DNA from: Candidatus Bathyarchaeota archaeon | GTDB taxonomy: Archaea > Thermoproteota > Bathyarchaeia > Bathyarchaeales > Bathycorpusculaceae | Direction of reading: 5' to 3' | NCBI GenBank assembly: GCA_963782525.1 | Contig: CAWAKC010000003.1 | Location: 64,001 to 128,000 of the forward strand | Length of the DNA stretch: 64,000 bases | Shown here: positions 6,704 through 58,629 of the stretch, one piece after another | How positions within the stretch are numbered: position 1 is the first letter of the stretch | How the letters are laid out: each line of letters opens with the position of its first letter | Translations under genes and position numbers: made by a program | The notes under the pieces: model-generated | The model's database searches: none | Told to the model about the DNA's origin: nothing | The model's input: only the letters and a program-made list of their open reading frames with translations

Positions 6704-6912
6704 GAATGTTGTTGGTTATCGAAGCTTATGTTCTGAATATACCTCAGTGTAATTAATGCAACAACGCTAACAAATTATTAGCTAATTTCACCGAGCATAC
6801 ATTATTGAGTTACAAAGTAAGCGCTTAATTAGATATGCTGTTGCTAACTTGTTCTAGCATAGTTTTAAAAAGCGATCGCAACAAAAGTACATTCGGAAAT
6901 TAGGGGTTTTTC

Positions 6913-10588: not shown

Positions 10589-12040
10589 TTAAAATTCAAC
10601 TAACCTTCCTTCCAGAAGAGGTATTACTTTTGTTTGAAGTAGTAGCGCAACAGTTTTAATTAATTTGGCTAATTTTTCAGAGTCAGCAGCTTCAATGTAT
10701 TTAACATAATCCGCTGTTATTCCATAAGGCATATGTCTACTAGACGTTACTTCTTTTTTCAGGCGTGGCTGCGGATTCTTAAGCAAAACCTCGCGAACAC
10801 TACAGAGTTGCTTAGTATCCAAAGTATCCAGTTTAAGTTTAACGTAATGTTGGCTTCCCAGCAGCTGAACATCAAACCCCAGAGAAGATAATGTCTGTGA
10901 GATCTTAACAACAGATTTCACCTCTGTCTGTTGAATAATGCGGACCATACCTGCTTTCTCTGCAAAAGGCGAATACTTAGCCATAACCGCAATCAACTCA
11001 ACAAAATCCGTACCAACCAAAGGAAGTGACTCACGAATTAACTTCGCACCTAAACCAACAGTTCGGTATTTTGGATGAATAACTACACGGTTAATAGTGC
11101 TTAGTTGCTGGTTGATTTCTTGCATTGACATTCGAGGAAGAACCATACGTCTCCCAAAACACGCGGGCGGTGGATAAGTATATACTATAACTCCACATAG
11201 CTCCATCCCACGAGTTAGTCGGAAGATTTTCCGGACAACTGATGTTTTATGGCCGCGATAATGGAACCTGCAGAGTTTTTCCCAGTCTTGCCTGTTGCCC
11301 TCTTCAACTTTCATCTCTCGGATAAGGCTGCATTCATCCACGTGACTATTTGGGAAATATTCGATCTGAATTTCTTCCCCAAACCGCTTAACCACAAACA
11401 CAGAAGGCGAAAGATCCTCAATTAGGTCGCTGTGAGTTGTGGCGACAATTGCCGCTCTTCCTTGGGACCGTGTGATTTTCTGCAGGTTAAACGCAATTAT
11501 CTTTGCTGTGTCTCGGTCTAAGCAGGCTGCGAATTCATCCATAAGCCACCATTGCTTTTGGCTCTCGATGAGTTTGGCGATTCGGTAACGGTATTTCTGG
11601 CCATCACTGAGTTGACTGTAGGTGCGCAGGAAAAGAAAAGCATCATTCAACCCCACCTTACTTAGCAGCTCTATGCCTTGCTCAACAGTAGCGCCAACGG
11701 TTTCAATCAGTGGTTTTTCTGGGTCCACCTGGACCTCGCTTAGGTCGATTGCTTCTTCCCCCAAGTCTGCTCGAATGGCTCTTATCAAGACGCTTTTTCC
11801 GCTGCCACTATCGCCGGTGATGTAGACGATGTCTTTGGGTCCGATCTTTAGTTCAGCGTCTAAAACCTTGAATTTCCGGGTCTCATCGATGCCTAACCCG
11901 AAGGCTTCGGCGACAACTATGCTTCTAGGTGTTATCTTTGTGTTGGTTTCATAGCTGATGTTGAAGGTAAACTTGCCCGTGGTCTTATCGTATGTTCTTC
12001 TGCAGGCTCTTATTCTAAATCCTCGGCGTTTTCGTCTCAT
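10589..12040 (-). CDS. ABC-type ATPase fused to GNAT acetyltransferase (COG2401-like)
   Basis: GDSGSGKS, LSDGQ, LMDE, TTH, then RVVIHPKYRTVGLG acetyl-CoA motif; possible +1 frameshift in last codons (alternate frame reads VYLFW). Confidence 0.85.
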   Translation of the reverse strand: MRRKRRGFRIRACRRTYDKTTGKFTFNISYETNTKITPRSIVVAEAFGLGIDETRKFKVLDAELKIGPKDIVYITGDSGSGKSVLIRAIRADLGEEAIDLSEVQVDPEKPLIETVGATVEQGIELLSKVGLNDAFLFLRTYSQLSDGQKYRYRIAKLIESQKQWWLMDEFAACLDRDTAKIIAFNLQKITRSQGRAAIVATTHSDLIEDLSPSVFVVKRFGEEIQIEYFPNSHVDECSLIREMKVEEGNRQDWEKLCRFHYRGHKTSVVRKIFRLTRGMELCGVIVYTYPPPACFGRRMVLPRMSMQEINQQLSTINRVVIHPKYRTVGLGAKLIRESLPLVGTDFVELIAVMAKYSPFAEKAGMVRIIQQTEVKSVVKISQTLSSLGFDVQLLGSQHYVKLKLDTLDTKQLCSVREVLLKNPQPRLKKEVTSSRHMPYGITADYVKYIEAADSEKLAKLIKTVALLLQTKVIPLLEGRLVEF

Positions 12041-12980
12041 CTTGGCACCATCGTTACAAATTGTTCAGGAACAAGCTCGCAGGTTGCAAAGGCTGCTAGA
12101 GCAGTAGCCCAAAAGACGTCGTCGTGAGTGCCTTGGGGGTGGCTAAAAGCTAAGCCGCCATCCTTTCGCAGTGCGAAGCGTTCAACGTTAAATTCATTGC
12201 AGATGTCTATGCGGTAGGGTTTATCCCAACTTAGTAGTGGATAGAAGAAGCGTTTGTCTTACATTCTTTTTTTGAGAATACTTGCCATCTCGCTTTTTTT
12301 TGGTGAACTAAAGATTACCCCTTCAGCGTTATCGATTCCGGCGTTTTCCATATCTGCAATGAAGCTTGGACCTTCCCTGGTTATGTCCACTCGAATCTTG
12401 TTGAAGCCGCCCCAGCGATCCTGCAAGGCTTTGATGTAACCCAGAACGTAGGCGTCATAGGTTGGGTGCGGGAAAATCTTTAGATGCCTAAGCAACAGCT
12501 TTTGATCGACTCTCCCACCACACTTAGGACATAGAAATCCCGTGTTTGCGCAGGATCCAACCCAGCATAGAATTCACCTTCAAACTCCTCTTCAGGGTCA
12601 AACTCCGCTAAATCCTCGCCGCAGTTCTTGGTTGTCCCAATACATGAGGAGATTAGGCTTTGGGATAGCCAGACGTCTTCATCCTCAGCCCACTCTGCCT
12701 CCATTTCACGTCTCCATCTGGAGGGATCGTCACGCATTTGTTTTTTGATCTTCTCAAGAATAATCGTTTTCAGTGGACCGTTGGGTTCTTGGGCACGTTC
12801 CCAGGTTATGTGGTGGCGTGCAAAGTCATCGAAGTCCTTGTTGTTGCAAATCCGATAGAACAAGCTATCCGTGTTCCAGGGTGTGCTTGTGCAGATAAAC
12901 TTCCCGTTAGTGGTGCCTAAGGTGAAGAGTGCAGCGTCGTAGAGATCCTCGGCGTTTGGGATGAAGTTGAATTTCGTCAG
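12037..12980 (-). pseudogene. phage terminase large subunit, frameshifted and 5'-truncated
   Basis: Three frames: TSTPW..LFY and REMEAEW (ATPase end), AGLD and RVD (nuclease), HPQGTHDDVFWATALA; stop overlaps ATG of the ATPase/GNAT gene. Confidence 0.8.
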
Positions 12981-18096: not shown

Positions 18097-18456
18097 AAAT
18101 ACTTGATGCAACCACGAAAGAGGCATTCTCAATGTAAACAACAAGAAGCACGCAGCAAAGCGATATGTAAGGCAGGGATGATTAACTCAATTCACGTTAA
18201 CAATACATAAGTGAAATAGCATAATTAACGTGCCGAGAAATAGTTCCGTGCTTAATTTCCTTAAAAGAAGTAACTGATACAATAAGGGGTAGTTTGATTG
18301 TTTTCTTGAATCAGCGGTGTCCATAATATTTGTTGTAGGATGTTATCTCGGGAGATTCTGTTTTTTCTAGCAAATCAGTAATATATTTACTTGCGGATTC
18401 TGAAGTGTCGATGTGTTGCCTCAAAGTTTTAAACAAAGAGGTAATGTATTATTTTA

Positions 18457-18526
18457 TGCGAGTAAGGCCTATCCGAGGCAATGATGCCCGCAGTTGTGGG
18501 CTGGGAGTACTAGGATAGGGGTCGCA
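18457..18526 (+). ncRNA. candidate structured small RNA
   Basis: Nested stems TGCGA/TCGCA, CCTATCC/GGATAGG, GCCCGCA/TGTGGGC; TTTTAAA about 30 nt upstream; T-tract downstream. Confidence 0.35.
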
Positions 18527-18634
18527 ACTTTATTTTCGCCACAAATACCTGGATGTAAATGTTCCAAAAAAGATGAAAGAAAACTTCATAAGCAATAAAT
18601 TTTAATTAGAATTAGTAAATTGTGAGGAAAAAAC

Positions 18635-26572: not shown

Positions 26573-26678
26573 GCGGTCGTAGTCTAGTTTGGTCTAGGAC
26601 ATCAAGTCCACTAGTACTCTTTGGACGTGCAAGCCTGCCACGCTGACGACCCGGGTTCAAATCTCGGCGACCGCACCA
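26573..26678 (+). tRNA. tRNA-Gly(GCC) with 28-nt non-canonical intron at about 29/30 (26605-26632)
   Basis: Acceptor GCGGTCG/CGACCGC-A-CCA, T-loop GTTCAAAT; removing the intron gives stem TCAGC/GCTGA and loop CT-GCC-AC. Confidence 0.93.
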
Positions 26679-47807: not shown

Positions 47808-49049
47808 TTATTTTCTTGTTTGACCGTCGCCCAAAATCACATATTTTGTTGTGGTGAGGTGCTGGGCGCTCATAGGTCCACGTGCATGAAGTTTTTGGGT
47901 GCTTATTCCGATTTCAGCGCCTAAGCCGAATTGGTTGCCGTCGGTGAAGCGTGTGGATGCGTTCCAGTAGACTGCTGCTGAATCGACTTCTTTTATGAAT
48001 TTCATGGCTTTGGCGAAGTCGCGGGTTAGGATGCTATCGCTGTGTTTGGTTCCATATTTGTTGATGTGCGTGATGGCTTCATCAAGGTTTTGGACCACTT
48101 TTACGCCTATGATTAAGTCGAGGTATTCGGTGCCCCAGTCTTTTTCGGTTGCAGCTTTTACGTCGGGGAGGATTTTGCGGGTTTCTTCGTCGCCACGGAC
48201 TTCCACGCCGTTCTTGCGTAACTCGGCAATAACAACAGGCAGGTATTGTTTGGCGATTTTGCTGTGAACTAGTAGTTTCTCGGCTGCGTTGCATGTTCCG
48301 GGGCGCTGACATTTAGCGTTTATTACGATGGGGGTTGCTTTGTCGAGGTCTGCGTCATCTTCAACGTAAACATGGCAGTTGCCCGTTCCAGTTTCAATGA
48401 CGGGAATCCGCGATTTCTCAACTACAGTCTTGATTAAGTCTGCACCGCCACGGGGTACCAGCACATCAATGTATTCTCGCATGCCCATCAATTCCTCTGC
48501 AACTTTTCGGTCTGGAGAATTCACCACTTGGATAGCGTCGACAGGTACCTTTGTTCCAGATAAGGCATCTCGCAACACTTCGCCGATGGCGACGTTGGAG
48601 TTTAACGCGTCTGAACCGCCTCTTAGAATCACGGCATTCCCCGATTTGATACAGATTCCTGCTGAATCCGAAGTGACGTTGGGACGTGATTCGTAGATTA
48701 CGCCGACTACTCCGAGGGGAACGCGGACTTGGCTGATTATTAAGCCGTTTGGGCGTGTCCAGCTGCTAAGGATGACGCCGATGGGGTCGGGAAGCGCTGA
48801 AACCTCGCGAAGTTCTTTAGCCATGTTTTCGATTTTCTTGTGGTCCAACGCTAAACGGTCAAGTAGTGCTGCTTTGACGCCTTTGGCTTTTGCAGCTTCA
48901 GCATCCGTTTTGTTAGCAGCCAAAATCTTCTCTGCGTTCGCTTCCAAGGCGTTTGCCATTCTGCAAAGCGCTACATTTTTGGCGTCCGATGAAAGCTTAC
49001 CCATTTCGAAAACGGCTGTTTTGGCTTTTAGGCATATTTCCTTTATCAT
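47808..49049 (-). CDS. proA: gamma-glutamyl phosphate reductase
   Basis: IYESRPNVT, GNCH, CNAAE, NASTRFTDG..FGLGAEIGISTQKLHARGPM. Confidence 0.96.
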   Translation of the reverse strand: MIKEICLKAKTAVFEMGKLSSDAKNVALCRMANALEANAEKILAANKTDAEAAKAKGVKAALLDRLALDHKKIENMAKELREVSALPDPIGVILSSWTRPNGLIISQVRVPLGVVGVIYESRPNVTSDSAGICIKSGNAVILRGGSDALNSNVAIGEVLRDALSGTKVPVDAIQVVNSPDRKVAEELMGMREYIDVLVPRGGADLIKTVVEKSRIPVIETGTGNCHVYVEDDADLDKATPIVINAKCQRPGTCNAAEKLLVHSKIAKQYLPVVIAELRKNGVEVRGDEETRKILPDVKAATEKDWGTEYLDLIIGVKVVQNLDEAITHINKYGTKHSDSILTRDFAKAMKFIKEVDSAAVYWNASTRFTDGNQFGLGAEIGISTQKLHARGPMSAQHLTTTKYVILGDGQTRK

Positions 49050-50158
49050 TTTTCTTCCTCAAGTAGGTGGATGTTTCGGTGCTCAATAACATCTTTAGAC
49101 TTATCGGCGCCGAGTTTTTTGTGTACTTCAGTTACTTGTAAGCCTTTTATTAGGTTTAACTCGCTGCTGCTGAAGTTGGGATTGCCCTTCGCAAACGCTG
49201 CGCCTTCTTCGTCAATGAGGCTTATTACTTCGCCAACACTAAAGTTGCCCACAACTCGTACTACCCCGACGGGGAGAAGGCTGGAGCCGTCAAGAATGGC
49301 TTTTTTTGCGCCCTCGTTAACATGAATTTGACCTTTCACCGCAGCACCATAAGCTATCCAACGTTTCACCGCGGGCATGCGACTTTGAGGCTTAAAATAG
49401 GTGCCAACATCTTTACCCGCAAGAATATCCAATATGACGTTTTCTCTTCGGCTATTTGCTATTACCACGGCTATGCCGCAGGAAGTGGCAATTTCAGCGG
49501 CTTTGATTTTGCTTTGAATGCCGCCTCTCCCCAACTTGCTCTTGCCATTCAGCGAGCTTTTGAGTTCGGTGGTGATTTCGTCGACGATTTTGATGAGTTC
49601 GGCTCCTGGTTGGGAGGGATCAGAAGTGTACAATCCCTCAACGTCAGAGAGGATGATGACTAAGTCGGCGCAGACTGCTCCAGCAACGAGCACTGAGAGG
49701 ATGTCGTTGTCGCTGAAATTTACTTTGTAGCCTTCAGTCCGCATTAATTCGTCCACTGAGACCACGTCGTTTTCGTTTATGATTGGGACGACACCGATTT
49801 TAAGCAGTAAAGCCAGGACGTCGCAGGTGTGAACGTATGATGCCCTGCTGGAGAGGTCCTCGGCAGTTAGGAGGATTTGAGCAACTTTCAAACCAAATTT
49901 TTTAAAAAGCTCCCGATACTTTGCCATCAAAACGCTCTGCCCCGTGGCTGCGGCTGCCTGCTGGAACGCTACATCTTTAGGTTTGGGAGGGATTTCAAGC
50001 TCTGCGATGCCAGCCGCAACTGCTCCTGAAGTTACAAGAACTATTTTGTCGCCTTGTTTGGTGGTTTTGGCTATTTGGCTAGCTAGGTTTTCCATTTCTT
50101 TTTCATCCAGCTTGCCATCGCGGGTTATGCCGTTGGTGCCAACTTTAACAACTATTAA
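49046..50158 (-). CDS. proB: glutamate 5-kinase with PUA domain; gene body separated from native start by integrated element
   Basis: LIVVKVGT in frame upstream of track ORF, VTSGA, NEND, DND.LS, GRGGIQSK; no ATG/GTG/TTG between in-frame TGA (50192-50194) and VKVG. Confidence 0.93.
   Translation of the reverse strand, partial: LIVVKVGTNGITRDGKLDEKEMENLASQIAKTTKQGDKIVLVTSGAVAAGIAELEIPPKPKDVAFQQAAAATGQSVLMAKYRELFKKFGLKVAQILLTAEDLSSRASYVHTCDVLALLLKIGVVPIINENDVVSVDELMRTEGYKVNFSDNDILSVLVAGAVCADLVIILSDVEGLYTSDPSQPGAELIKIVDEITTELKSSLNGKSKLGRGGIQSKIKAAEIATSCGIAVVIANSRRENVILDILAGKDVGTYFKPQSRMPAVKRWIAYGAAVKGQIHVNEGAKKAILDGSSLLPVGVVRVVGNFSVGEVISLIDEEGAAFAKGNPNFSSSELNLIKGLQVTEVHKKLGADKSKDVIEHRNIHLLEEEK
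50145..50158. repeat. att core, left copy
   Basis: TTAACAACTATTAA within proB codons LIVVK. Confidence 0.9.
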
Positions 50159-50216
50159 CCGACTATTACTTTTATTTGAGTTAATCTCTAATCAGCCTTC
50201 TTTTTACATTTTGATT

Positions 50217-50399
50217 TTATCTTACTGTTCCTGTTTTGGCTAAGAACTGTTTGATTAATTCTTCATCGTTCATTATGGGTTTAGAGTCGTGTTTTCTCAC
50301 TCGGCAAAGTAGGACCCGGAAGCCTTCGAGTTTGTCGCCTGTTTCTATGTATTTTTTGATAATTTGCCGTTCACTTGGAGTTAAGATATAGTCACGCAT
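50217..50399 (-). CDS. small putative DNA-binding protein
   Basis: MRDYILTPSERQII; GGTGA SD; reads toward proB. Confidence 0.7.
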   Translation of the reverse strand: MRDYILTPSERQIIKKYIETGDKLEGFRVLLCRVRKHDSKPIMNDEELIKQFLAKTGTVR

Positions 50400-50413
50400 T
50401 GTAAGTTTTCACC

Positions 50414-50522
50414 TGTGTATCATTGGTTGATATGGTTATTTAACCATTACTATTGTGTAACATTGGTTAATTTCAACCATAGTAACGCTTAAATAACACT
50501 TCTGTGTTACAATGATTGTAAC
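50414..50522. promoter_or_regulatory. divergent promoter region with three direct repeats
   Basis: TGTGTATCATTGGTT (50414), TGTGTAACATTGGTT (50454), TGTGTTACAATGATT (50503), plus TGGTT/AACCA dyads. Confidence 0.6.
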
Positions 50523-50538
50523 AAGGAATTGAAGCAAA

Positions 50539-50664
50539 ATGAGCGCACAAATAACCCAAACAAAAAAAGTCTGCCCTGAATGTGGCGGCAAACTCGAATA
50601 TAATATTGCTTATGGAACCGACGACTGCATTGAATGTGGTCACGTCGAAGGCAACAGCGACTAA
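50539..50664 (+). CDS. 41-aa zinc-ribbon peptide (not in ORF track)
   Basis: MSAQITQTKKVCPECGG...DCIECGH. Confidence 0.7.
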   Translation: MSAQITQTKKVCPECGGKLEYNIAYGTDDCIECGHVEGNSD

Positions 50665-50679
50665 GGAGCTGTGATTTAA

Positions 50680-50964
50680 TTGATAAAATACACTAAAGAA
50701 CAAATCAACACTATTCTAAACCTTGAAGGCTGGCTCAAAACCCAGATCGACGTCTTCAACCTCTACGCGGTCCTCACAATCGGCGTATCAAACAACTTTA
50801 AGGAATGGGAAGTTAAACAGAAAACCTACAGCGAAAAGCCACTATCCATAACTCTTGAGGACTTTGTCAACTGCACATCTAAAGCCGCTGTCAAAAAACA
50901 ATTCAAGAAGATCATGGCGAAAGCTGTTTCAGCGGCTATGTTTCCAGGAGACAAGGTTTTTTGA
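50680..50964 (+). CDS. hypothetical protein
   Basis: 94-aa ORF after GGAG. Confidence 0.6.
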   Translation: MIKYTKEQINTILNLEGWLKTQIDVFNLYAVLTIGVSNNFKEWEVKQKTYSEKPLSITLEDFVNCTSKAAVKKQFKKIMAKAVSAAMFPGDKVF

Positions 50965-51125
50965 CTTGTCTTTTCTGGGACCGCTGCCTTTCGCGGTCAA
51001 CTCATAGAAGCTTATGCAGTACTGATGGGTCAACCTGTAAAATTCACGTTGAAATCGAACGCCTCGAGAACATTGGCAAAAATAGAAATATAGTAATTCT
51101 CAACGTGTTTGGAGGTGAAAATTAA

Positions 51126-51278
51126 ATGAAAACATTTACATTCAACTTAAGCGCCAGAAAACTTCAAGCGTTAAATGAAAGAGCGGAGCTTATGGGAATA
51201 ACCCCAGAAAAGTTACTGTGCGATTTAATCAGCGAACATATCCAAAACACTGTTCTAGTGATTGCTGAAGACAGTTAA
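51126..51278 (+). CDS. ribbon-helix-helix (CopG-like) regulator, 50 aa (not in ORF track)
   Basis: GGAGGTGA SD; MKTFTFNLS..KLQALNERAELMGITPEKLL. Confidence 0.75.
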   Translation: MKTFTFNLSARKLQALNERAELMGITPEKLLCDLISEHIQNTVLVIAEDS

Positions 51279-51330
51279 GAAAAGACTTAACCCTCATTTT
51301 CTTTTTTTGTTAAAGTCACCGAATGTTTTA

Positions 51331-51390
51331 AGTGTGGATTGCGCTTGAGCGAGTTTTTACCCTCTTCTCAGCTCAAACGTAATTCACACT
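51331..51390 (+). other. 20-bp stem hairpin between convergent genes
   Basis: AGTGTGGATTGCGCTTGAGC / GCTCAAACGTAATTCACACT; 2 G-U pairs, 1 mismatch. Confidence 0.6.
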
Positions 51391-51449
51391 CCTGCCCATT
51401 TTAGAAACTTTAAAAGAAATTAAAATAAAAAAAATAAAAGAGTTGAAGT

Positions 51450-51755
51450 TTAGAAAGGCTTTGATATTCTGCCTAATCCATCGGTGGTGAAGGATTGGCT
51501 TTTTCCGGCTGAAAAAGGTATGCGTTCGGCAGGTTTTGCAGGTTCAGTCTTTGGCGTTGGCTCCGGTTCAATTTGTAATTGAATCATTTTGCCGCCGTAC
51601 AAAAACAGTTTGTCTGCGAATTGTATCGGCTTGAAATGCTCGACCCAATTGTCTAAGTCTAATTGATTTTTAAATATTAAAAAGTAATCAAAATGGTTTG
51701 GGTAGCCTACGCCTGACTTCAATGTTGGTTGTGTGATTGATTGTTTTTTGCTCAT
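51450..51755 (-). CDS. hypothetical protein
   Basis: 101 aa, GAGGTGA SD. Confidence 0.7.
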   Translation of the reverse strand: MSKKQSITQPTLKSGVGYPNHFDYFLIFKNQLDLDNWVEHFKPIQFADKLFLYGGKMIQLQIEPEPTPKTEPAKPAERIPFSAGKSQSFTTDGLGRISKPF

Positions 51756-51777
51756 TTTTTCACCTCTTTTTTCATGC

Positions 51778-52149
51778 CTATTTTTTGTTCTGGTCTATTT
51801 TCCAGGGGTTTTTTGCGTTATAATAATTATTCATTGGAACGTTAAACAAAGTATTGCCAATAGTGAGCTCTGGAAGAGGCTCTGGCATTGCAGTGTAGGT
51901 TGAATCTGTTGGTTTGATGATTTTTCCGCCTATCATGCCGGGCTTTTCCCCAAATACGGAATTGCCCAGGGTTAAGTGTTTGTTGTCGAGAGAATTTGGG
52001 ATTTCTTGACGTTGCGGTGCTTGGGTTTGTTGTCTGGTTTGAAGTCTTCCGAGGACAACATAGAGTTGTTCCAGAGAAAAATCGCTGTAAGAGTCGTTTT
52101 CCTTTGTGATTCCGTTGATTTCTCTTATTATTTTTTGCCGTTCGCTCAT
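51778..52149 (-). CDS. hypothetical protein
   Basis: 123 aa, internal LTLGNSVF/LTIGNTLF repeat. Confidence 0.65.
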   Translation of the reverse strand: MSERQKIIREINGITKENDSYSDFSLEQLYVVLGRLQTRQQTQAPQRQEIPNSLDNKHLTLGNSVFGEKPGMIGGKIIKPTDSTYTAMPEPLPELTIGNTLFNVPMNNYYNAKNPWKIDQNKK

Positions 52150-52213
52150 GTGGTTCGCTTCTAATTAATTTGGAGTTTATTCGAGGCTTTATGTCTAAAA
52201 ACGACATATTTTA

Positions 52214-52675
52214 TTATTCGTTTTCGCTTTGCTCGGCAAACGATCTATCTGTCCCTCTGAAAAGATAGGAGTCGAAGTGGGTATTTGTGCGACATCCGCC
52301 TTCCACGAAGCAGCGAACGCGGCAACCGTCCTCATATCCCATCGAAGAGTAAACTAAGTATTTTGAACCATGCAAACCGCACTTGTACTTTATTATTCTG
52401 CCCTGCTTGCCAAGGTCCAGCCGGCAAATTGCTAGTCCATGCCTAATCTTTTTTTGGCCATATTTCTGTAAGATACGTTGTTTATCGTCTTTGCTCCTTG
52501 AAAAATAGAAGCCTTGAATTATTTCTGTTAGTTCTGGGGCTGTTAGATAATTGCCTCTTCGACCTTGCCTTCTCTTTGGTTTTCCTGTTGAATTAAACTG
52601 GATTGTTGAGGCTTCAATTAGAAAAGGGTTGGTTGATGGTCGAAAGTTTAAGAGTTGGGTTTGGGTTTGCCTCAT
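52214..52675 (-). CDS. hypothetical basic protein with Cys/His cluster
   Basis: 153 aa. Confidence 0.6.
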   Translation of the reverse strand: MRQTQTQLLNFRPSTNPFLIEASTIQFNSTGKPKRRQGRRGNYLTAPELTEIIQGFYFSRSKDDKQRILQKYGQKKIRHGLAICRLDLGKQGRIIKYKCGLHGSKYLVYSSMGYEDGCRVRCFVEGGCRTNTHFDSYLFRGTDRSFAEQSENE

Positions 52676-52695
52676 ATGTCTCGAAAGGTTTGGTT

Positions 52696-53199
52696 TTAAC
52701 AGAGACTAAGCGGCCATCCATCATTTTTGTGCTTTAGTTTTTGTAGTTCGCTTTCACATCTCTTAAGATAATAGTATTCGTGCCTTGAAACGGCTATTTC
52801 GTGTTTGCTGATTATTTGTTTGTTTAAGATTTCAGCGTGTTCTTTGAGTTCTGTTAAAGCCATGTCTTCAAGGGCGGCGTCGCAGTAAGTTTTAGAAACT
52901 GCGTGTTGTTTCTCTAAGTGTTCTATGAAGTCGTCTGTGTTGTCGTATTCCCTGAAATGCTCAAATTCAATGGCTAGGTCAAGTGCGTCTGAGGCTGAGT
53001 GTTCGAGGCATCTTCTAACGCAACTGTATATAACTAGAACGTTATGTTTAGCGAGTGTTTGCTTGTAGGTTCCAACTTGCCGTAGATGTGAAAGAACGGT
53101 GTTAAAGCTGTGTTCGACTCGGTCAATTGAGACGCCTTTAGAAGTTACTGTTTGTTTCCTAATTTTTTTAATGTATGTTTTTTTAAAAGCCGATCTCAC
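52696..53199 (-). CDS. hypothetical protein
   Basis: 167 aa. Confidence 0.6.
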   Translation of the reverse strand: MRSAFKKTYIKKIRKQTVTSKGVSIDRVEHSFNTVLSHLRQVGTYKQTLAKHNVLVIYSCVRRCLEHSASDALDLAIEFEHFREYDNTDDFIEHLEKQHAVSKTYCDAALEDMALTELKEHAEILNKQIISKHEIAVSRHEYYYLKRCESELQKLKHKNDGWPLSLC

Positions 53200-53238
53200 G
53201 AAAACTTAGGTTTTATGGTGGTGTAAAAAAACAACCGC

Positions 53239-53514
53239 TCATTGCAAACCCGCTTCTTTAGCATGCTTGTTAATTAACGCGGCTAACTCTTCAGACCTGA
53301 CTAACTCTTCAATTTCAGCCATTTGTTTATCGTATCGTTGTTCAGGCGTCAAAAACCTATCTGCTATTTCTTCAAGTTTACTTAATTCAATTAGTTCCTT
53401 GAGTAAACAATCAAGGGCTTCTGATCTTTGCTTCTGTTCTTCAGCTTCTTTATCGGTTTGTGGCTGAATTTTCGCTTCAAGGCGAGCAACTTTGTTTTTT
53501 AAACTGCCACTCAT
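53239..53514 (-). CDS. hypothetical coiled-coil protein
   Basis: 91 aa, ATGA overlap with upstream gene. Confidence 0.7.
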   Translation of the reverse strand: MSGSLKNKVARLEAKIQPQTDKEAEEQKQRSEALDCLLKELIELSKLEEIADRFLTPEQRYDKQMAEIEELVRSEELAALINKHAKEAGLQ

Positions 53515-53768
53515 ATTTTACTCACCGTTTTCTCTAAGACTTCATGCCGCTGCTTAACCTGTTCAATATCTGCGTCGTTTAGGATTTTGCCGTATGCTTG
53601 AACTGCAGCGACAATTACTTTAGCCCATTTTTGCCGGTCAGAGTTAGAAGCTTTTTCCATATCGAATTTAGTCTTAGAAACGTCTATTACACCGCTTAAA
53701 CAGCGAAACAGCTTATCCCGTTGCTTCTTTGGTTCCAAGTTGCATGTATCTTGCGCCAATGTTATCAC
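53511..53768 (-). CDS. small helical protein
   Basis: 85 aa, RQKWAKVI...ILNDADIEQVKQR. Confidence 0.7.
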   Translation of the reverse strand: MITLAQDTCNLEPKKQRDKLFRCLSGVIDVSKTKFDMEKASNSDRQKWAKVIVAAVQAYGKILNDADIEQVKQRHEVLEKTVSKI

Positions 53769-53798
53769 ATCAAGTTTTTCGGTGATTACACCAAGTCT

Positions 53799-54110
53799 TT
53801 AGGTCTCGTCTTCTTTTGCTCTAACTTCTGCTATTTTTGCGCGAAGGTCTGTTAACTCCTTCTTAGTTAGCCGAGGAAATAATGTCAACGCTTTTTCATC
53901 TGAAGACCATTCAATTATCTGCCAAAACATTTCACGTGTTACAGCTAATTCTTGCTCGATTTTGGCTTCTTCCTCAGGAGTTAAGGTCTTCAGGTCTTCA
54001 TCCTCAGAGAGAAGATTACTTATCAATAAGTCTCGTAACTGTAGCCGTTCAAGTATTGGTAATTCGTTAAGTTTTTTCAATGTTATTTTTTCTTTATCTG
54101 ATTCGTCCAA
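53799..54110 (-). CDS. hypothetical acidic helical protein
   Basis: 103 aa. Confidence 0.65.
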   Translation of the reverse strand: MDESDKEKITLKKLNELPILERLQLRDLLISNLLSEDEDLKTLTPEEEAKIEQELAVTREMFWQIIEWSSDEKALTLFPRLTKKELTDLRAKIAEVRAKEDET

Positions 54111-54178
54111 GTTTTTTTACACCTTTCAATTTTTTAAATAAAAAAGAAAATTTGGTATAGTAACACAATAACACCTGT

Positions 54179-54295
54179 TTAAGCGCCTGTCTTTCTAATT
54201 ACCAGCCTACTGTTGCTGTAATTCTCGTTGAGCAGGTCTAAGAATCGTCTAGCAGAAGTTCCCCCAACTACTACCATAACATCGTTTCTTTCCAA
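54179..54295 (-). CDS. 38-aa peptide (not in ORF track)
   Basis: GGAGGTGA SD then TTG; MERNDVMVVVGGTSARRFLDLL... Confidence 0.5.
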   Translation of the reverse strand: MERNDVMVVVGGTSARRFLDLLNENYSNSRLVIRKTGA

Positions 54296-54321
54296 ACTCT
54301 CACCTCCCGTCCGCTCTCTCC

Positions 54322-56145
54322 TTAAATTAAACTAACTTTGTAATCCCCTGTTTTATCTCGTGACCGCGTTATGTATCCGGTATAACTCTCAAGTTTGCAG
54401 AGAACCCTTGAAGCTTTCATTTTTGCGCCTGAAAATACTTCGTTAGCAATTTCGGTTTGATAGGCTGAACCACCTTTTTCTCTTAGATAGCGTAACAGTT
54501 TAACAGCGATTATGCGATGCTCTTTTTCTTTGGGAAATATAGTCATCAACTCTAACTCCATGTCTTTTACTATTTGTTCCAGTCCAATCCATTGAGTGAT
54601 GTTCTGTTTTGTTATCATTGAGCCCTCAACACTGTTTTCCAGAGCTATGTTGATGTAGTTTTTGAATCGTCTCATTATTCCCCGGCTGAGTGCTGCGATT
54701 TCAGGGATAGCATCTTTTTCAAAAGGATTATTTAACGGAAATCGGGAGAAAAAGTAAGACGTCATTTCGTCAGGAGTGAATGGTTTTAAGTCTATAACTT
54801 TCATTTTACCTAAAAAATGATGTCCATAGAATAGTTCTGCTTGGAAGAAAATAATCAAATTACCTTTTTGATTGTATACTCCGTCGCAGCCGTTGGTGCA
54901 AAGGTTGTTTTCCCAGAACGCTTGAATACCGTTAAGGTCTTTAGTCATTTGGTTAATGGTTAATCGGCTGTAGTCGCACAGATCAAGAATGAAGCTTCCT
55001 GTAGTTTCTATCTCTTCCATTATCTGCTTATTTTTTATTAGATTAACTTTTGTGCTGCCAAGAGTTTTTTCCATTAAAGGACATAGGTTAATTATTTTAT
55101 GCCAGAGATCAAAGTTGTCTGTAACTGTTGAAGAATCATTTTTGCGTGTGAAGAGGTAGTAGTCTTTGATATCTGTTGCGCTGTCTAAGCCTATACGTTT
55201 GCGGATATATTCAGCGATGTCAAATATTGCGTTTGACTGTGTGTGTTGTTCTGCATCTTTCCAAAGAGTCTCAAAAAGTTCGTGTATATAGGATTCATCA
55301 TATTCATCAAGAAATGATGTATCTTTACTTATTTTTTCTGCTATGTCTGTTTTTGGCTTTCCAACCCATTTCCATGACTGGATTTTTATGCCGTTTTCGC
55401 GTAAGTAATTACTTAAGGCCTCTTTTAACGCTGTTTTTCCAACGCCTTGGAGACCTTTTACGCCTATTAGGTTTCCGTTAGTTTTGAGGAGTCTTTGTCT
55501 TAGATTTATTCCTTCTTTTGTCCAGAGATATTCCTCTTCTTCGTGTGATTCTGTGGTTAATCGACAGCTCCATTGATAGATTGCATCTCTTGTTTGATTT
55601 TTCCAGAAGGTAAGGGTTGCTTCATCTATTCTATTAACGGTTGGTTGGGGTGGTGTTATTGTGTTACTCGTTAGGGGAACGGTTTGAGGTTTACTTATCT
55701 GAATAGGAGTTGGTTGCACTGTTATTGTGTTACTGGGTGTTGATTCTTTCGAGTAATTGTTTATTATCTCGTCGTCGGTAACGTCTTTTCGGAATGGGTA
55801 GCTTGCTCTAAAATTCGCTATTATGCCCGCCCTTTCAGATTCTGGAATTGTTGTTTTGGTTGGTTGTCGCTCTGTATGTTTTTTTGAAAGGTTCGCCGTC
55901 ATTTCATCGTAGCTGTCATAGTTGTCATAGGTGTCATCGTCGTCTAATTCTTCTTCTTGATCTGGGTTTTGGGATTTATTGAAAGCTTCTACTGTTTCAT
56001 TTAGTCCCGGTGGGCTCGGTTCGCCTTCTTCTAAGCCGAGAATCTCTCGAATAGTCGCCACAAAAACCTCTGCCTCTGGATATCGACTATGAAAATAATC
56101 TATTGCTTCCTGAACTGTTTTAGGCTTCTGATTTACCTTTGACAT
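54322..56145 (-). CDS. P-loop AAA+-like ATPase with C-terminal wHTH (candidate replication initiator)
   Basis: GLQGVGKT, FILD, SRGIMRR sensor-like motif, C-terminal QTEIANEVF..KASRVL..LE; low-complexity N-terminus. Confidence 0.72.
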   Translation of the reverse strand: MSKVNQKPKTVQEAIDYFHSRYPEAEVFVATIREILGLEEGEPSPPGLNETVEAFNKSQNPDQEEELDDDDTYDNYDSYDEMTANLSKKHTERQPTKTTIPESERAGIIANFRASYPFRKDVTDDEIINNYSKESTPSNTITVQPTPIQISKPQTVPLTSNTITPPQPTVNRIDEATLTFWKNQTRDAIYQWSCRLTTESHEEEEYLWTKEGINLRQRLLKTNGNLIGVKGLQGVGKTALKEALSNYLRENGIKIQSWKWVGKPKTDIAEKISKDTSFLDEYDESYIHELFETLWKDAEQHTQSNAIFDIAEYIRKRIGLDSATDIKDYYLFTRKNDSSTVTDNFDLWHKIINLCPLMEKTLGSTKVNLIKNKQIMEEIETTGSFILDLCDYSRLTINQMTKDLNGIQAFWENNLCTNGCDGVYNQKGNLIIFFQAELFYGHHFLGKMKVIDLKPFTPDEMTSYFFSRFPLNNPFEKDAIPEIAALSRGIMRRFKNYINIALENSVEGSMITKQNITQWIGLEQIVKDMELELMTIFPKEKEHRIIAVKLLRYLREKGGSAYQTEIANEVFSGAKMKASRVLCKLESYTGYITRSRDKTGDYKVSLI

Positions 56146-56160
56146 TTTAAAAGCAGCCTA

Positions 56161-56385
56161 TTACTCTGTTGGGGTTGGGTTGGCGAAAACAATTTTGAGG
56201 TAGCGTTCGCTCCGGGTTTGAAAGATTATACGAGCATTGGTTTCTTCAAGTATGAATTTCTTGATTCGTTCAAACTCGGAGGCTGTAGTTTTTAGGATGC
56301 AGCCAGCGAAGTTTATGTTTTCGGCTGGGTCGATTGTGGGTTTAGAGTTTTTAAAATGGAATCCATATTCTTGTTCTTCAGTCAT
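56161..56385 (-). CDS. small hypothetical protein, first gene of leftward operon
   Basis: 74 aa. Confidence 0.65.
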   Translation of the reverse strand: MTEEQEYGFHFKNSKPTIDPAENINFAGCILKTTASEFERIKKFILEETNARIIFQTRSERYLKIVFANPTPTE

Positions 56386-56461
56386 TTCAATTCAATTCCT
56401 GAGCTTTTAGCTCAAACTATTTGGTCTAAAACTCTGCAACTAACCTACGCTTTGTTTTAGA

Positions 56462-56550
56462 GTATACCTCTCCAGACCGAGGTATACAATAGTATACTAC
56501 TCATAACCTTAATAAGTCTTTTTGCTTAGATTAAGTCTGGATGTGTATAC
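56462..56550. promoter_or_regulatory. operator array between divergent genes
   Basis: GTATACCTC-N8-GAGGTATAC; GTATAC at 56462, 56482, 56492, 56545. Confidence 0.6.
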
Positions 56551-56981
56551 TTGTGGTCGGTAAACTTGAGGTTGCGGCATTCATTGCAGAAAAGAAGAAA
56601 GCGACTTGGAGCGAATTAGTTAGGCAACTTGTTAATATTCCTTCAAAATTTGTTTGTCCTAGCTGCAAATCGTCGCGTATTGTTGAGGATCGGGAAGCTC
56701 AAGAATTTGTTTGTGTGGATTGCGGAATTGTTGTAAATTCTGGAAATCGAATAGCAAGACAAACTCTTCTTGATTATCTTAAGGCATTGATTAAAGAGGG
56801 GATCGTTGAAAAAGTGATTGATAAGGAAACGTTGAAACCTGTTTACCAAGTGACTGAAACGGGCCGCAAAAAGCTTAATGATTTACAAAATAAACAACGA
56901 GCAATTGAAATGATTCTTAAAACATCGGATCTTAGGCAAACATTAAAAGAAATTCTGAAAAACATGGAAAATAAAAGTTAG
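56541..56981 (+). CDS. wHTH regulator with inserted TFIIB-type zinc ribbon
   Basis: ATWSEL..[CPSCKSSRIVEDREAQEFVCVDCGIVV]..IARQTLLDYLKALIKEGIVEK...YQVTETG. Confidence 0.8.
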   Translation: MCILVVGKLEVAAFIAEKKKATWSELVRQLVNIPSKFVCPSCKSSRIVEDREAQEFVCVDCGIVVNSGNRIARQTLLDYLKALIKEGIVEKVIDKETLKPVYQVTETGRKKLNDLQNKQRAIEMILKTSDLRQTLKEILKNMENKS

Positions 56982-57013
56982 CTGTTTTTTAGTTTGGGTT
57001 TGTGTTTCATGGT

Positions 57014-58381
57014 TTAAGCCTGTTTTTTGTTGAGTATTTGTTTTGCTAAATCAAGCTCTTTCTGCAGTTTATCAGCTTCAGCCGTTAGGTATTGTTCAGA
57101 TTCCCGCGCTTGTTTGGCGAGCGGTGAATTGATGGCTTCAAGTTTTGGCGCTGTCTCTGCATGTAGGTCTCGAGTTCGACTGTAAACTCTTAGTTGTCTC
57201 TCAGCTATTCCTATTAATGGAGTCACAACTGTTCTTAAATCCAGTAATTCTTCTTTGAAGGCTTCAAGTTCTAAGCTTTTTTCCATTACATCTTTAACTA
57301 AAGCGTCGATTATTCGTTCTTTCACTTCAAAACGGTTCTGTAATTCAGTAAGTTTTTTAGAGTCTTCAGTGTTGGCGGTTTTTCCAGACATTTCTTCTTT
57401 AGAACTTTTCTCAATTTTCAAAAATTCCTCAGCACTCAAGTATAAAGCCCTCAGATCATCCGTTGGCATATTCAAGTAAGCCAAATTTTGAGCGCCTATA
57501 GAGTGACCCATCCAGAACTGTCTTAATTCTTGATCAATTTTCCCCATTAACCGAGAATTAAAAGCAGCCCTCAACGAATGAGGCCGCGCTGGGTTGAAGC
57601 CACCATTCTGTTTAATAAAACTCAAGTCCTTTGCCATTTCCGAAAAACTTTGCTGGACCGCACAATCGGTTATTCTTTCCTCACCACCTCTTAATCGTTC
57701 CTTAACAAACAAAGGACTTTCAGGGTTGAGGTCTTTTCTAGTCGCCAAATACAAGCGCAAATAATATACGGCGTCTCTACCAAAGAACGTTTTAAATTTT
57801 ATCTGAGTTTTCTTCCGTACAAGTTTTAGGTAAAGCGGCAAAGTTCCTTTTTCTAACTCTTCCTGGACGTCTCCATAATTCAATTCGATTATTTCATTGA
57901 TACCTAGCCCAGACTGGAATATGCAGAGGATTAAGGCTTTTTCGCGGTAACTTGGGGATTTATCGACAAACTCTTTTATTTGTTCTATATGCCATTCGTG
58001 TTTTTCATTGATTTTTTGACCAACCGGCGAGGGCATGTTCCCGATAAAATCCATAGAAACCATAATTTGCTTAAACTTTAAGAAATTCTGCATGGCTGCA
58101 AAGTAAACCCTAACTGAATTGTTAGAGTTCCCTTTTTGTTTTAGGAATTCAATGTATTCCTTTAATTCTGTTTCAGCGACGCGTTTACGTTCGCGGAGAG
58201 GCTTTTTGAATTCTTCAAAGATATTGTTTAAGAAATCGTTAAAGTTGTGGGTTTGTCCATATTTGCCTTGGTAATACTCTAAGAATAGTCTGAAGCCTGT
58301 TGCGTAGGCTTCGCGGGTTGGTTTGCTTTTGAATGATAGGTACTCTTCAACTTCTGCCTCGAATTTTGGTTTAATTACCAA
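57014..58381 (-). CDS. tyrosine integrase/recombinase
   Basis: N-terminal SAM-like domain, RKKT, PHSLR, WMGH, AY; first catalytic Arg position reads QSGLG; starts 59 bp from att. Confidence 0.9.
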   Translation of the reverse strand: MVIKPKFEAEVEEYLSFKSKPTREAYATGFRLFLEYYQGKYGQTHNFNDFLNNIFEEFKKPLRERKRVAETELKEYIEFLKQKGNSNNSVRVYFAAMQNFLKFKQIMVSMDFIGNMPSPVGQKINEKHEWHIEQIKEFVDKSPSYREKALILCIFQSGLGINEIIELNYGDVQEELEKGTLPLYLKLVRKKTQIKFKTFFGRDAVYYLRLYLATRKDLNPESPLFVKERLRGGEERITDCAVQQSFSEMAKDLSFIKQNGGFNPARPHSLRAAFNSRLMGKIDQELRQFWMGHSIGAQNLAYLNMPTDDLRALYLSAEEFLKIEKSSKEEMSGKTANTEDSKKLTELQNRFEVKERIIDALVKDVMEKSLELEAFKEELLDLRTVVTPLIGIAERQLRVYSRTRDLHAETAPKLEAINSPLAKQARESEQYLTAEADKLQKELDLAKQILNKKQA

Positions 58382-58435
58382 ACGTTAACCTCAGTTTAAT
58401 AGCGATTGCAACCTTAATAAAACTTGTTGTATTAC

Positions 58436-58465
58436 TTACTTAACAACTATTAATCTCGAAGGCAT
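58436..58465 (-). other. orphaned native 5' end of proB (MPSRLIVVK*)
   Basis: ATG CCT TCG AGA TTA ATA GTT GTT AAG TAA; joins proB body in frame at the att core. Confidence 0.88.
58440..58453. repeat. att core, right copy
   Basis: TTAACAACTATTAA identical to 50145-50158. Confidence 0.9.
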
Positions 58466-58629
58466 CACTCTATCACTTTTGGTTAGACTTATTTGAAATA
58501 GGGTTGGCTTGCTTAAAAATGCAACCAAACACGGAAACAAAAAATTTGTTTTCTATACTTAAAATTCATGTTTTTGATGTGTAACAGCTAATTTTTTTTG
58601 GAAAAATATATAAGGAATATGGACACCGC

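What the first reader, a model, noticed from the sequence alone, without database searches (positions are those of the whole stretch)
49046..58465. Integrated element splits proB from its start codon: candidate excision-controlled proline switch
Seen: TTAACAACTATTAA occurs at 50145-50158 and 58440-58453, 8295 bp apart, with an integrase 59 bp inside the right copy. On the minus strand, ATG 58465 encodes MPSRLIVVK and then stops. The proB body begins LIVVKVGT and has no canonical start upstream of that motif. Recombining the repeats gives MPSRLIVVKVGTNG..., a 374-aa glutamate 5-kinase reconnected to its own upstream region. Known: the N-terminal VVKxG Lys is required in amino-acid kinases, so the internal ATG at 50095 should give a dead enzyme. 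Bacterial elements such as skin in sigK and the comK prophage act as excision switches. Inference: this could be an archaeal equivalent that gates proline or osmolyte synthesis.
Basis: partly seen in the sequence, partly recalled or inferred. Interest (0 to 1): 0.9.

Follow-up and report, generated by a model that had tools for sequence, protein, structure and literature searches.

The report
Mobile element splits archaeal proB gene
A small plasmid-like mobile element has inserted into the first codons of a proline-synthesis gene in a soil archaeon and cut the gene off from its start signal; the disruption is real and looks reversible, but nothing yet shows that the cell uses it as a switch.

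Summary
The 14-mer occurs twice in the window and nowhere else in the 2.87-Mb genome. It brackets 8,281 bp of low-GC DNA (0.37-0.41 vs 0.46-0.50) that carries an intact tyrosine integrase, an Orc1/Cdc6-like ATPase and a TFIIB-ribbon/wHTH protein. The only proB copy is separated from its promoter, Shine-Dalgarno (SD) site and first four codons.

The empty site exists. 100 of 101 same-genus genomes with this locus have an uninterrupted start. Two soil-metagenome contigs join 50144 to 58440 exactly.

New here: a second species (G124) carries a different 1.6-kb, integrase-less insert at the same proB site. Integrases 66-73% identical sit at codon ~26 of another gene.

The "excision-controlled proline switch" is not supported. 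Occupancy is sporadic (2 of 102 genomes with this locus). The element looks like an autonomous integrative plasmid. Relatives use other targets in both orientations.

My reading is a recent, probably reversible insertion that knocks out or knocks down proB-proA. The live rival is that expression continues from element signals: G124's split proB still shows purifying selection (omega ~0.10).

The parts
50145..50158 (-). att core, copy next to the proB body (attL-type). On the minus strand it forms codons L-I-V-V-K(1st 2 nt) of proB.
   Evidence: Exact 14-mer. One of only two copies in the genome. Metagenome contigs join 50144 to 58440, with 14 nt fitting both sides.
58440..58453 (-). att core, copy next to the proB start stub (attR-type).
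50159..58439 (.). Integrated element: 8,281 bp unique, 8,295 bp with one core. Plasmid-like; no virion genes recognised.
   Evidence: GC 0.37-0.41 against 0.46-0.50 in the flanks. Absent from G010 and 100 other genus genomes at this site. Modules are shared with elements in G084, G038, G103, G051 and G079.
49046..50158 (-). proB body (glutamate 5-kinase, AA_kinase + PUA). It lacks its own start codon; the first canonical start is ATG 50095.
   Evidence: PF00696 E=9.1e-38 and PF01472 E=3.9e-18. Aligns to E. coli G5K 2J5T from residue 7. Single copy in the genome. No canonical start upstream.
58436..58465 (-). proB 5' stub: ATG plus 8 codons (MPSRLIVVK), then TAA supplied by the element.
   Evidence: Same N-terminus as intact relatives.
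58472..58519 (-). Native proB expression signals left behind: TTTTTAAG box (58512-58519) and SD-like GTGAT (58472-58476).
   Evidence: The box and GTGAT are conserved upstream of proB in the genus relatives shown. The 16S 3' end reads GGAUCACCUCCU. Promoter function is inferred.
57014..58381 (-). Tyrosine integrase, 455 aa, intact. It is not split by integration.
   Evidence: PF00589, phrog_1. Aligns to XerA 4A8E and XerD; HxxR, H and Y are kept, and Gly sits at the Arg-I position. 158 relatives at E<=1e-20.
58388..58437 (-). Integrase-proximal arm: AAGTAATA (58430-58437), TATA-like TTTTATTAAGG (58412-58422), SD-like GAGGT (58388-58392).
   Evidence: Read. The TAAGTAATA and TTATTAA motifs recur at the same place in L073, L074, L078, G064 and G065. 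Function is inferred.
50159..50216 (-). Arm next to the proB body: AAGTAATA (50164-50171), in-frame ATT (50183-50185), SD-like GAAGGCTGAT (50191-50200), stop TGA (50192-50194).
   Evidence: About 70 nt are homologous to the arm of the G124 insert.
54322..56145 (-). 607-aa P-loop ATPase with a C-terminal winged helix. Orc1/Cdc6-like; candidate replication initiator.
   Evidence: Model of residues 185-607 has pLDDT 89.3. Top Foldseek PDB hits are archaeal Orc1/Cdc6 2V1U and 2QBY, E about 1e-7, TM 0.38-0.46. The atlas lists AAA_16/ATPase_2/MarR clusters. 323 relatives at E<=1e-3.
56541..56981 (+). 146-aa TFIIB-type zinc ribbon plus wHTH protein; candidate regulator.
   Evidence: PF08271 E=9.5e-9. 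71% identical homologue in the G084 element.
50217..50399 (-). 60-aa ORF, the last element gene, reading toward proB. No run of 4 or more T between its stop and proB.
   Evidence: Homologues in G084, G103, G051 and G079 with unrelated downstream DNA.
50680..54110 (.). Small element ORFs of unknown function: 50680-50964(+), 51450-51755(-), 51778-52149(-), 52214-52675(-), 52696-53199(-), 53239-53514(-), 53511-53768(-), 53799-54110(-). A further one lies at 56161-56385(-).
   Evidence: ORFs. No significant Pfam or PHROG family. Several are conserved in related elements.
47808..49049 (-). proA. Its ATG overlaps the proB stop (ATGA), so it is probably translationally coupled to proB.
   Evidence: PF00171. 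Coordinates. Coupling is inferred.

Best explanation
An autonomous, plasmid-like integrative element of a Bathyarchaeia-type archaeon recombined with the chromosome through a 14-bp core that forms codons 5-9 of proB. The element carries an unsplit tyrosine integrase, an Orc1/Cdc6-like ATPase, a TFIIB-ribbon/wHTH protein and about ten small ORFs.

Integration left the native promoter-like box, the SD site and a 9-codon stub (MPSRLIVVK-stop) at one end. It left the promoterless, startless proB-proA body at the other end.

Shown: the junctions, the precise empty site in relatives and in metagenomes, the single proB copy, and the lack of any ATG, GTG or TTG upstream of the catalytic-Lys motif.

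Inferred: the insertion is recent and strain-level; it abolishes or strongly lowers glutamate 5-kinase, and proA by coupling; the cell then depends on imported proline or peptides; integrase-mediated excision would restore the gene exactly. So it is a reversible insertional knock-out or knock-down of the ordinary mobile-element kind, not a host-domesticated switch.
For: - Junction anatomy.
- GC drop across the element.
- Integrase intact, with HxxR/H/Y kept.
- Orc1/Cdc6-like fold for the 607-aa protein.
- Uninterrupted start in 19 of 19 relatives read and in 100 of 101 genus genomes with the locus.
- Metagenome contigs in X2 and X3 skip exactly 8295 nt.
- All 120 listed ProB clusters are full length, 372-402 aa.
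- Own genome: one proB, proC present, no ornithine cyclodeaminase.
- proB is dispensable in part of the order. G019, G023 and G024 (95-99% complete) lack proB, proC and OCD with these queries.
- G000 vs G010 proB: dN 0.0012, dS 0.048, so there has been no time for decay.
- Integrases 66-73% identical (L073, L074) also cut a coding region near its 5' end and supply no start.
- A 96%-identical integrase sits on an 8,257-bp contig, about the element's size. This hints at a free or polymorphic form.
Against: - No expression or protein data, so loss of function is inferred.
- The frame from the element into proB is open. It is preceded by an SD-like GAAGGCTGAT and an in-frame ATT.
- No oligo-T terminator separates the upstream 60-aa ORF from proB, so read-through mRNA is likely.
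- In G124 the split proB has no deviation at 122 otherwise invariant columns. Its terminal branch has omega about 0.10 (dN 0.0192, dS 0.1975), although its insert has no integrase. That fits continued function as well as recency.
- No alternative proline route was found in the own genome. A null allele would therefore mean auxotrophy.
Confidence: 0.6

Rival explanations
1. The element keeps proB working. Transcripts reading out of the 60-aa ORF run into proB. Translation starts at a non-canonical codon in the element arm (in-frame ATT 50183-50185 behind SD-like GAAGGCTGAT, or ATA inside the core). The product keeps the catalytic Lys behind a short foreign N-terminal extension. Integration is then nearly neutral.
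For: - Open frame LEINSNKSNSR|LIVVK.
- The SD-like motif matches 8 of 10 positions of the anti-SD complement, 5 nt from ATT.
- The two codons before the core encode Ser-Arg, as in the host, but with different codons.
- No run of 4 or more T between the 60-aa ORF and proB.
- About 70 nt of this arm are conserved in the otherwise unrelated G124 insert, again in an open frame (...NSKGSKAR|LIVVK).
- G124's proB is under purifying selection with no integrase nearby.
Against: - No ATG, GTG or TTG in either genome.
- The ATT is TTT in G124.
- The arm conservation is equally explained by the AAGTAATA motif that flanks the core on both sides and recurs next to related integrases.
- L073 and L074 show no surrogate start for their target gene.
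- An 11-codon open stretch is not unusual by chance (my estimate).
Confidence: 0.25
2. The element is kept in proB as a regulated on/off device. After integration the integrase lies 58 nt downstream of the 9-codon stub on the same strand. proB promoter activity (proline or osmotic demand) could therefore drive integrase, excision and restoration of proB.
For: - Exact restoration is possible.
- Both states exist in nature, and there is an element-sized contig with a 96%-identical integrase.
- The same site is used twice in the genus.
- The geometry places int behind the proB promoter-like box.
Against: - Only 2 of the 102 genomes in which this locus was found are occupied. Nothing resembles the lineage-wide conservation of skin-type elements.
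- The element has a full plasmid-like gene set and its own promoter-like and SD motifs for int.
- L073 and L074 sit in the opposite orientation, so promoter capture is not a family design.
- G124's insert has no integrase.
- No condition-dependent data exist.
Confidence: 0.1
3. Assembly artefact: a chimeric join of a plasmid contig into the chromosome at a short shared repeat.
For: The genome is a 12-contig assembly. The only sequencing runs found hold small shares of the region, and no contig was seen to cross attL or attR.
Against: - The two junctions are exactly reciprocal at a 14-mer found nowhere else in the genome.
- The integrase sits in the canonical att-proximal position.
- An independent genome (G124) has an insert at the same nucleotide positions.
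- The contig is 463,547 bp long.
Confidence: 0.02

Closest known systems
Cryptic integrated elements of Thaumarchaeota and other archaea (Krupovic et al. 2019, PMC6563490; passages read)
   Same: Small integrase-bearing elements without virion genes. Short att sites (a 13-bp example is given). Protein-coding genes are used as targets. Empty sites in sister species are used to define the borders.
   Different: In that survey all 14 protein-gene integrations were in 3'-distal regions, and one supplied a new stop codon. Here the target is codons 5-9, and the gene loses its start codon and promoter. The host here is Bathyarchaeia-like, judged from named relatives. Their Table S2 could not be opened.
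pNOB8-type (unsplit) versus SSV-type (self-splitting) archaeal integrases (review PMC8371274, passages and section 19; PMC7253208, abstract in the listing)
   Same: Tyrosine recombinase. The integrase gene stays whole after integration, and att lies just outside it, as in the pNOB8 type.
   Different: It is not the SSV type, because the integrase ORF is not interrupted. It has a long C-terminal tail (residues ~335-455) that is swapped as a module: 86% identical in G084 on a different catalytic domain. Gly sits at the aligned Arg-I position.
Bacterial phage regulatory switches / active lysogeny (comK prophage of Listeria, PMC7397523, and phiSa3 in hlb, PMC6597384, abstracts in the listing; skin-sigK recalled)
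   Same: A site-specific element interrupts a chromosomal gene, and exact excision would restore it.
   Different: Those elements are conserved at their site across strains, and their excision is tied to a host programme. Here occupancy is 2 of the 102 genus genomes in which the locus was found, and no regulation is known. phiSa3/hlb-type negative conversion by an ordinary mobile element is the nearer analogue.
Glutamate 5-kinase ProB of E. coli (PDB 2J5T)
   Same: AA_kinase + PUA architecture. LVVKLGT aligns with LIVVKVGT.
   Different: The window's gene has no start codon upstream of that motif. The annotated 349-aa form begins 21 residues after it.

Membership tests
Tyrosine recombinase / phage integrase (PF00589) | HMM match above the curated cut-off | tested here: met
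   37.7 bits against 27.1. phrog_1 E=1.8e-14.
Tyrosine recombinase / phage integrase (PF00589) | Catalytic R...HxxR...H/W...Y set | tested here: inconclusive
   PHSLR (H268, R271), H293 and Y302 are invariant in 32 relatives. The residue aligned with Arg-I of XerA/XerD is Gly (SGLGINE). R146, R189, R236 and R266 are invariant and one of them could substitute.
SSV-type (type I) archaeal integrase | attP inside the integrase ORF, so integration splits the integrase gene | tested here: not met
   The integrase ORF is whole (455 aa). The core lies 58 nt upstream of its start.
pNOB8-type (type II) archaeal integrative element | Integrase gene intact after integration; short direct att repeats at the borders | tested here: met
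   Sequence kinship to pNOB8 itself was not tested.
Excision-controlled regulatory switch (skin / comK-prophage kind) | The element interrupts a host gene, and exact excision restores an intact ORF | tested here: met
   In silico only: junctions, the natural intact allele P0121, and empty-site contigs.
Excision-controlled regulatory switch (skin / comK-prophage kind) | The element is conserved at that site across the lineage | tested here: not met
   100 of 101 other genus genomes with the locus are uninterrupted. Only G124 is occupied, by a different insert.
Excision-controlled regulatory switch (skin / comK-prophage kind) | Excision is induced when the gene product is needed | not testable with these tools
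   No RNA holder was listed and only small-share DNA runs were found.
Glutamate 5-kinase (ProB) | AA_kinase domain plus PUA domain, with the N-terminal VVKxG(T/S) motif | tested here: met
   The motif is encoded, but no canonical start precedes it.
Orc1/Cdc6-type initiator (607-aa protein) | AAA+ module with Walker A, followed by a C-terminal winged helix; fold nearest to Orc1/Cdc6 | tested here: inconclusive
   GxGK is invariant. Top PDB fold hits are Orc1/Cdc6, but TM is only 0.38-0.46 and identity 10-14%. Pfam gives only a sub-threshold AAA_18 hit. Origin binding was not tested.

The most novel reading that the evidence does not exclude
A promoter-capture excision switch in an archaeon. Integration into codons 5-9 of proB places the element's integrase directly behind the proB promoter and a 9-codon leader. 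Demand for proline, signalled by proB promoter activity, would then raise integrase expression, excise the element and restore proB-proA. The element persists meanwhile as an Orc1/Cdc6-driven plasmid and can re-enter. Recurrent use of the site (G000, G124) and the 5'-proximal hits of sister integrases would make this clade the first archaeal counterpart of bacterial active lysogeny.
Probability: 0.08. Interest if true: 0.85.

Novelty: new variant of a known kind. Interest (0 to 1): 0.5.

Why it matters
Archaeal integrative elements are known to enter tRNA genes, intergenic DNA and the 3' ends of protein genes, usually without harming the target (passages). In this case an element removes a biosynthetic gene's start codon and promoter. 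The same site is hit twice in one genus, and sister integrases hit the 5' part of another gene.

If the allele is null, mobile elements create reversible amino-acid auxotrophy in Bathyarchaeia populations. That bears on their peptide-scavenging ecology and on metabolic inference from MAGs, because the gene is annotated as a 349-aa 'ProB'. If the allele still works, it is a natural case of element-supplied, non-canonical translation initiation in an archaeon. Either outcome can be tested with one read-mapping or proteomics experiment.

In searches, and in the passages and section of two papers read, I found no report of an archaeal element that splits a gene from its start. That is not a full literature survey.

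Tried and rejected
Sequencing runs. No RNA holder was listed. Only three small-share DNA runs from one study were found. Laid on the region, they showed the empty site but no contig crossing attL or attR, and the element interior had almost no cover. I draw nothing about expression or habitat from this.

Viral contigs. Both arm+core stretches, a degenerate attL pattern and the integrase protein all found nothing.

Small element ORFs. Pfam and PHROGs gave no significant family for the small element ORFs or the two G124 insert ORFs. A Ycf1 hit and an IBR hit are sub-threshold and I discard them.

A conserved outward-reading design. The DNA downstream of the 60-aa ORF differs in G084, G103, G051 and G079. 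The ORF is therefore not always terminal, and no shared surrogate start exists.

proB as the target of the whole integrase clade: rejected. G064 and G065 sit just past a PHP_C gene. L078 is intergenic, about 140 nt from tRNA-Thr. L073 and L074 sit in a 258-aa gene.

Alternative proline route. No OCD was found in the own genome. Ornithine aminotransferase was not searched for.

Dating the G124 insertion. It can only be bounded by dN/dS; there is no closer sister than G004.

Paper search for the role of the G5K Lys. Searches gave nothing usable, so that point is recalled knowledge (E. coli K10, recalled from Marco-Marin et al. 2007).

Items I could not see. Supplementary Table S2 of PMC6563490 was not seen and may list targets that bear on the 3'-only statement.

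Full report
OBSERVATION. The 14-mer TTAACAACTATTAA occurs at 50145-50158 and 58440-58453. None of 100 shuffles gave two matches. These are the only two copies in the whole 2,867,851-bp assembly. On the minus strand the right copy is preceded by ATG CCT TCG AGA and followed by a stop, giving MPSRLIVVK-stop. The left copy runs straight into LIVVKVGTNGITRDGK.... That reading frame is a 370-residue AA_kinase + PUA protein. It aligns with E. coli glutamate 5-kinase from residue 7, LVVKLGT. Upstream of the left copy the frame is open for only 11 codons after a TGA and holds no ATG, GTG or TTG. The first canonical start is ATG 50095, which is the 349-aa form held in public annotation. Every coordinate in the finding is correct.

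IT IS AN INTEGRATED ELEMENT.
- The 8,281 bp between the repeats have GC 0.37-0.41, against 0.46-0.50 on both sides.
- They carry a 455-aa tyrosine integrase starting 58 nt from the right core (PF00589; phrog_1).
- They carry a 146-aa TFIIB-zinc-ribbon/wHTH protein and about ten small ORFs with no family.
- They carry a 607-aa P-loop protein. Its residues 185-607 fold with pLDDT 89.3. The best PDB matches are archaeal Orc1/Cdc6 (2V1U, 2QBY; E about 1e-7, TM 0.38-0.46), in line with the atlas leads. It is a plausible replication initiator, not a proven one.
- No virion gene was recognised.
- The integrase is not split, so this is the pNOB8-like rather than the SSV-like mode.
- The host is archaeal: a full-length archaeal SSU model match, and named relatives of ProB and the integrase are Candidatus Bathyarchaeota/Bathyarchaeia.

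THE EMPTY SITE IS REAL.
- In 19 of 19 relatives whose proB locus I read, an in-frame ATG (GTG in one) lies 3-6 codons before the Leu of the L(I/V/A)(V/I)(V/L)K motif. In most of the same-genus relatives read it sits behind the same TTTTTAAG box and GTGAT motif that lie to the right of the element in the window.
- G010 has a 374-aa ProB, 99.7% identical over the aligned body.
- I used G010's natural start region as a DNA query over all 120 genomes of the genus. 102 matched, and only G000 is split into two pieces that overlap by the 14-nt core (query 1-106 and 93-292).
- 94 of the 101 others align across the ATG and the core. Of the other 7, six have diverged but intact N-termini and one (G124) is occupied.
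- Logan contigs from two soil-metagenome runs of one study join 50144 to 58440, skipping exactly 8295 nt, with 14 nt fitting both sides. They show 0 differences on the proB side and 3-6 on the other side. One of these runs also holds a 196-nt piece of the integrase.
- The top 120 ProB clusters in the large protein collection are all full length.

NEW FINDINGS.
(a) G124, another species of the genus (a 68%-complete MAG), has an insert at the same place. The native promoter-like box, ATG CCT TCA AGA and the first 7 nt of the core are followed by about 1.6 kb of low-GC DNA with two ORFs and no integrase. Then comes ...TCGG + CTAATAGTTGTAAAGG and the proB body. About 70 nt of the arm next to the body are homologous to the window's arm. 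A pattern for this junction finds only G000 and G124 among 120 genomes.
(b) The integrase belongs to a large clade: 158 proteins at E<=1e-20 among the candidates scored. A 96%-identical copy lies on an 8,257-bp contig, about the size of the element. I could not fetch that contig.
(c) The nearest integrases with context use various targets. L073 (73%) and L074 (66%) abut codon ~26 of a conserved 258-aa gene of unknown function, read divergently, at a core of the same TTAA-N6-(T/A)TAA shape, and supply no start. G064 and G065 (54% and 48%) sit just past a PHP_C gene. L078 (64%) is intergenic near tRNA-Thr.
(d) The motif (T)AAGTAATA follows the core in most of these. In the window it flanks the core on both element sides, so it is probably an integrase-binding feature.
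(e) Mosaic relatives of the element occur in G084, G038, G103, G051 and G079, elsewhere in their genomes.

WHAT IT DOES TO proB. The genome has one proB, a proC and no ornithine cyclodeaminase. The native promoter-like box and SD now lead into a 9-codon stub and then toward the integrase. The body is preceded by the element's 60-aa ORF on the same strand, with no run of 4 or more T in between. Read-through mRNA is therefore plausible, but there is no canonical start before the Lys motif. The 349-aa product would lack the first strand and the K-x-G-T loop. By recalled knowledge of amino-acid kinases it should be inactive. proA's ATG overlaps the proB stop, so it probably falls with proB. My main reading is a knock-out or strong knock-down, tolerated because these organisms can live on imported amino acids. 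Three order-level relatives at 95-99% completeness lack proB, proC and OCD altogether, and same-genus G016 shows proC but no proB with these queries. G000 and G010 differ at dS 0.048 in proB, so the insertion is too young for any decay to show.

THE LIVE RIVAL. An SD-like GAAGGCTGAT lies 5 nt before an in-frame ATT. It matches 8 of 10 positions of the complement of the 16S tail. The two codons before the core encode Ser-Arg, as in the host, but with different codons. In G124 the split proB has no change at 122 columns that are invariant in the other 19 sequences. Its terminal branch has dN 0.0192 and dS 0.1975 (omega about 0.10), against 0.0082 and 0.1795 for sister G004. By my own mixture arithmetic on those values, at most about 5% of that branch can have been neutral. 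So either that insertion is also recent or the gene still works when split. Against the rival: the ATT is TTT in G124, neither genome has a canonical start, and the arm conservation has the integrase-site explanation.

THE SWITCH IDEA. Exact restoration is possible. The site is used recurrently. Integration also puts the integrase behind the proB promoter-like box, which could couple excision to demand. Against it: occupancy is 2 of the 102 genomes with the locus, the element looks autonomous, the integrase has its own TATA-like and SD-like motifs, L073 and L074 are in the opposite orientation, and G124 has no integrase. I rate it at about 0.1. It remains the most interesting reading.

COMPARISON AND NOVELTY. 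In passages of Krupovic et al. [quoted passage not shown] The 2021 review lists a few coding targets, none tested. Bacterial gene-interrupting prophages are well known (listing). Supplements were not seen.

VERDICT. Interest 0.5.

Noticed in passing
L087 (G124:C37) 5146-6800: A second occupied proB site in another species: a ~1.6-kb, low-GC, integrase-less insert between ATG-CCT-TCA-AGA-TTAATAG and CTAATAGTTGTAAAGG. It holds two unannotated ORFs (198 aa with Cys-rich ribbons, 175 aa with a signal-like N-terminus). It may be a remnant or a non-autonomous element; which one is unresolved.
   Followed up: partly
L073 1-260; L074 1-340; own-genome homologue L079 1423-2199: Integrases 73% and 66% identical to the window's abut codon ~26 of a conserved 258-aa protein with no Pfam family (MKQFLLTPQAGK... 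in G000). The core has the form TTAATTGCAG(T/A)TAA, and the element supplies no start codon.
   Followed up: partly
window 57014-58381 (integrase residues ~156-163): The residue that aligns with catalytic Arg-I of XerA/XerD is Gly (SGLGINE), and the consensus of 32 relatives reads SGLGVNE. Other arginines (R146, R189, R236, R266) are invariant. The clade may have a non-canonical active-site layout.
   Followed up: partly
L055 (G084:C13) 8184-9533: The G084 element's integrase shares an 86%-identical C-terminal tail of ~97 residues with the window's integrase, on a catalytic domain only about 28-42% identical. The tail seems to be exchanged as a module. The 146-aa TFIIB-ribbon protein next to it is 71% identical.
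   Followed up: no
L051 (G102:C7) 11932-12882: The gene reading into the 60%-identical integrase of G102 has a sub-threshold match to only the first half of a CAP12/Pycsar TIR domain (E=0.0024, profile positions 2-58 of 119). This may be another interrupted coding target. Weak lead.
   Followed up: no
window 18456-18527 (+): Rfam DUF3800-X RNA, 67.1 bits against a gathering score of 38.2.
   Followed up: no
window 26573-26675 (+): Rfam tRNA match spanning 103 nt (41.9 bits) that ARAGORN did not call. It is probably an intron-containing archaeal tRNA.
   Followed up: no
P0001 (protein id; contig not fetched): A 96%-identical integrase lies on an 8,257-bp contig of another assembly. The length is close to the 8,295-bp element, so it may be the free or graph-isolated form.
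   Followed up: no
G010:C13:45276-45567 and G010:C14:8767-9058: The proB start region occurs twice, 100% identical, on two contigs of G010. One copy is near a contig end. This is probably overlapping contigs rather than a true duplication.
   Followed up: no
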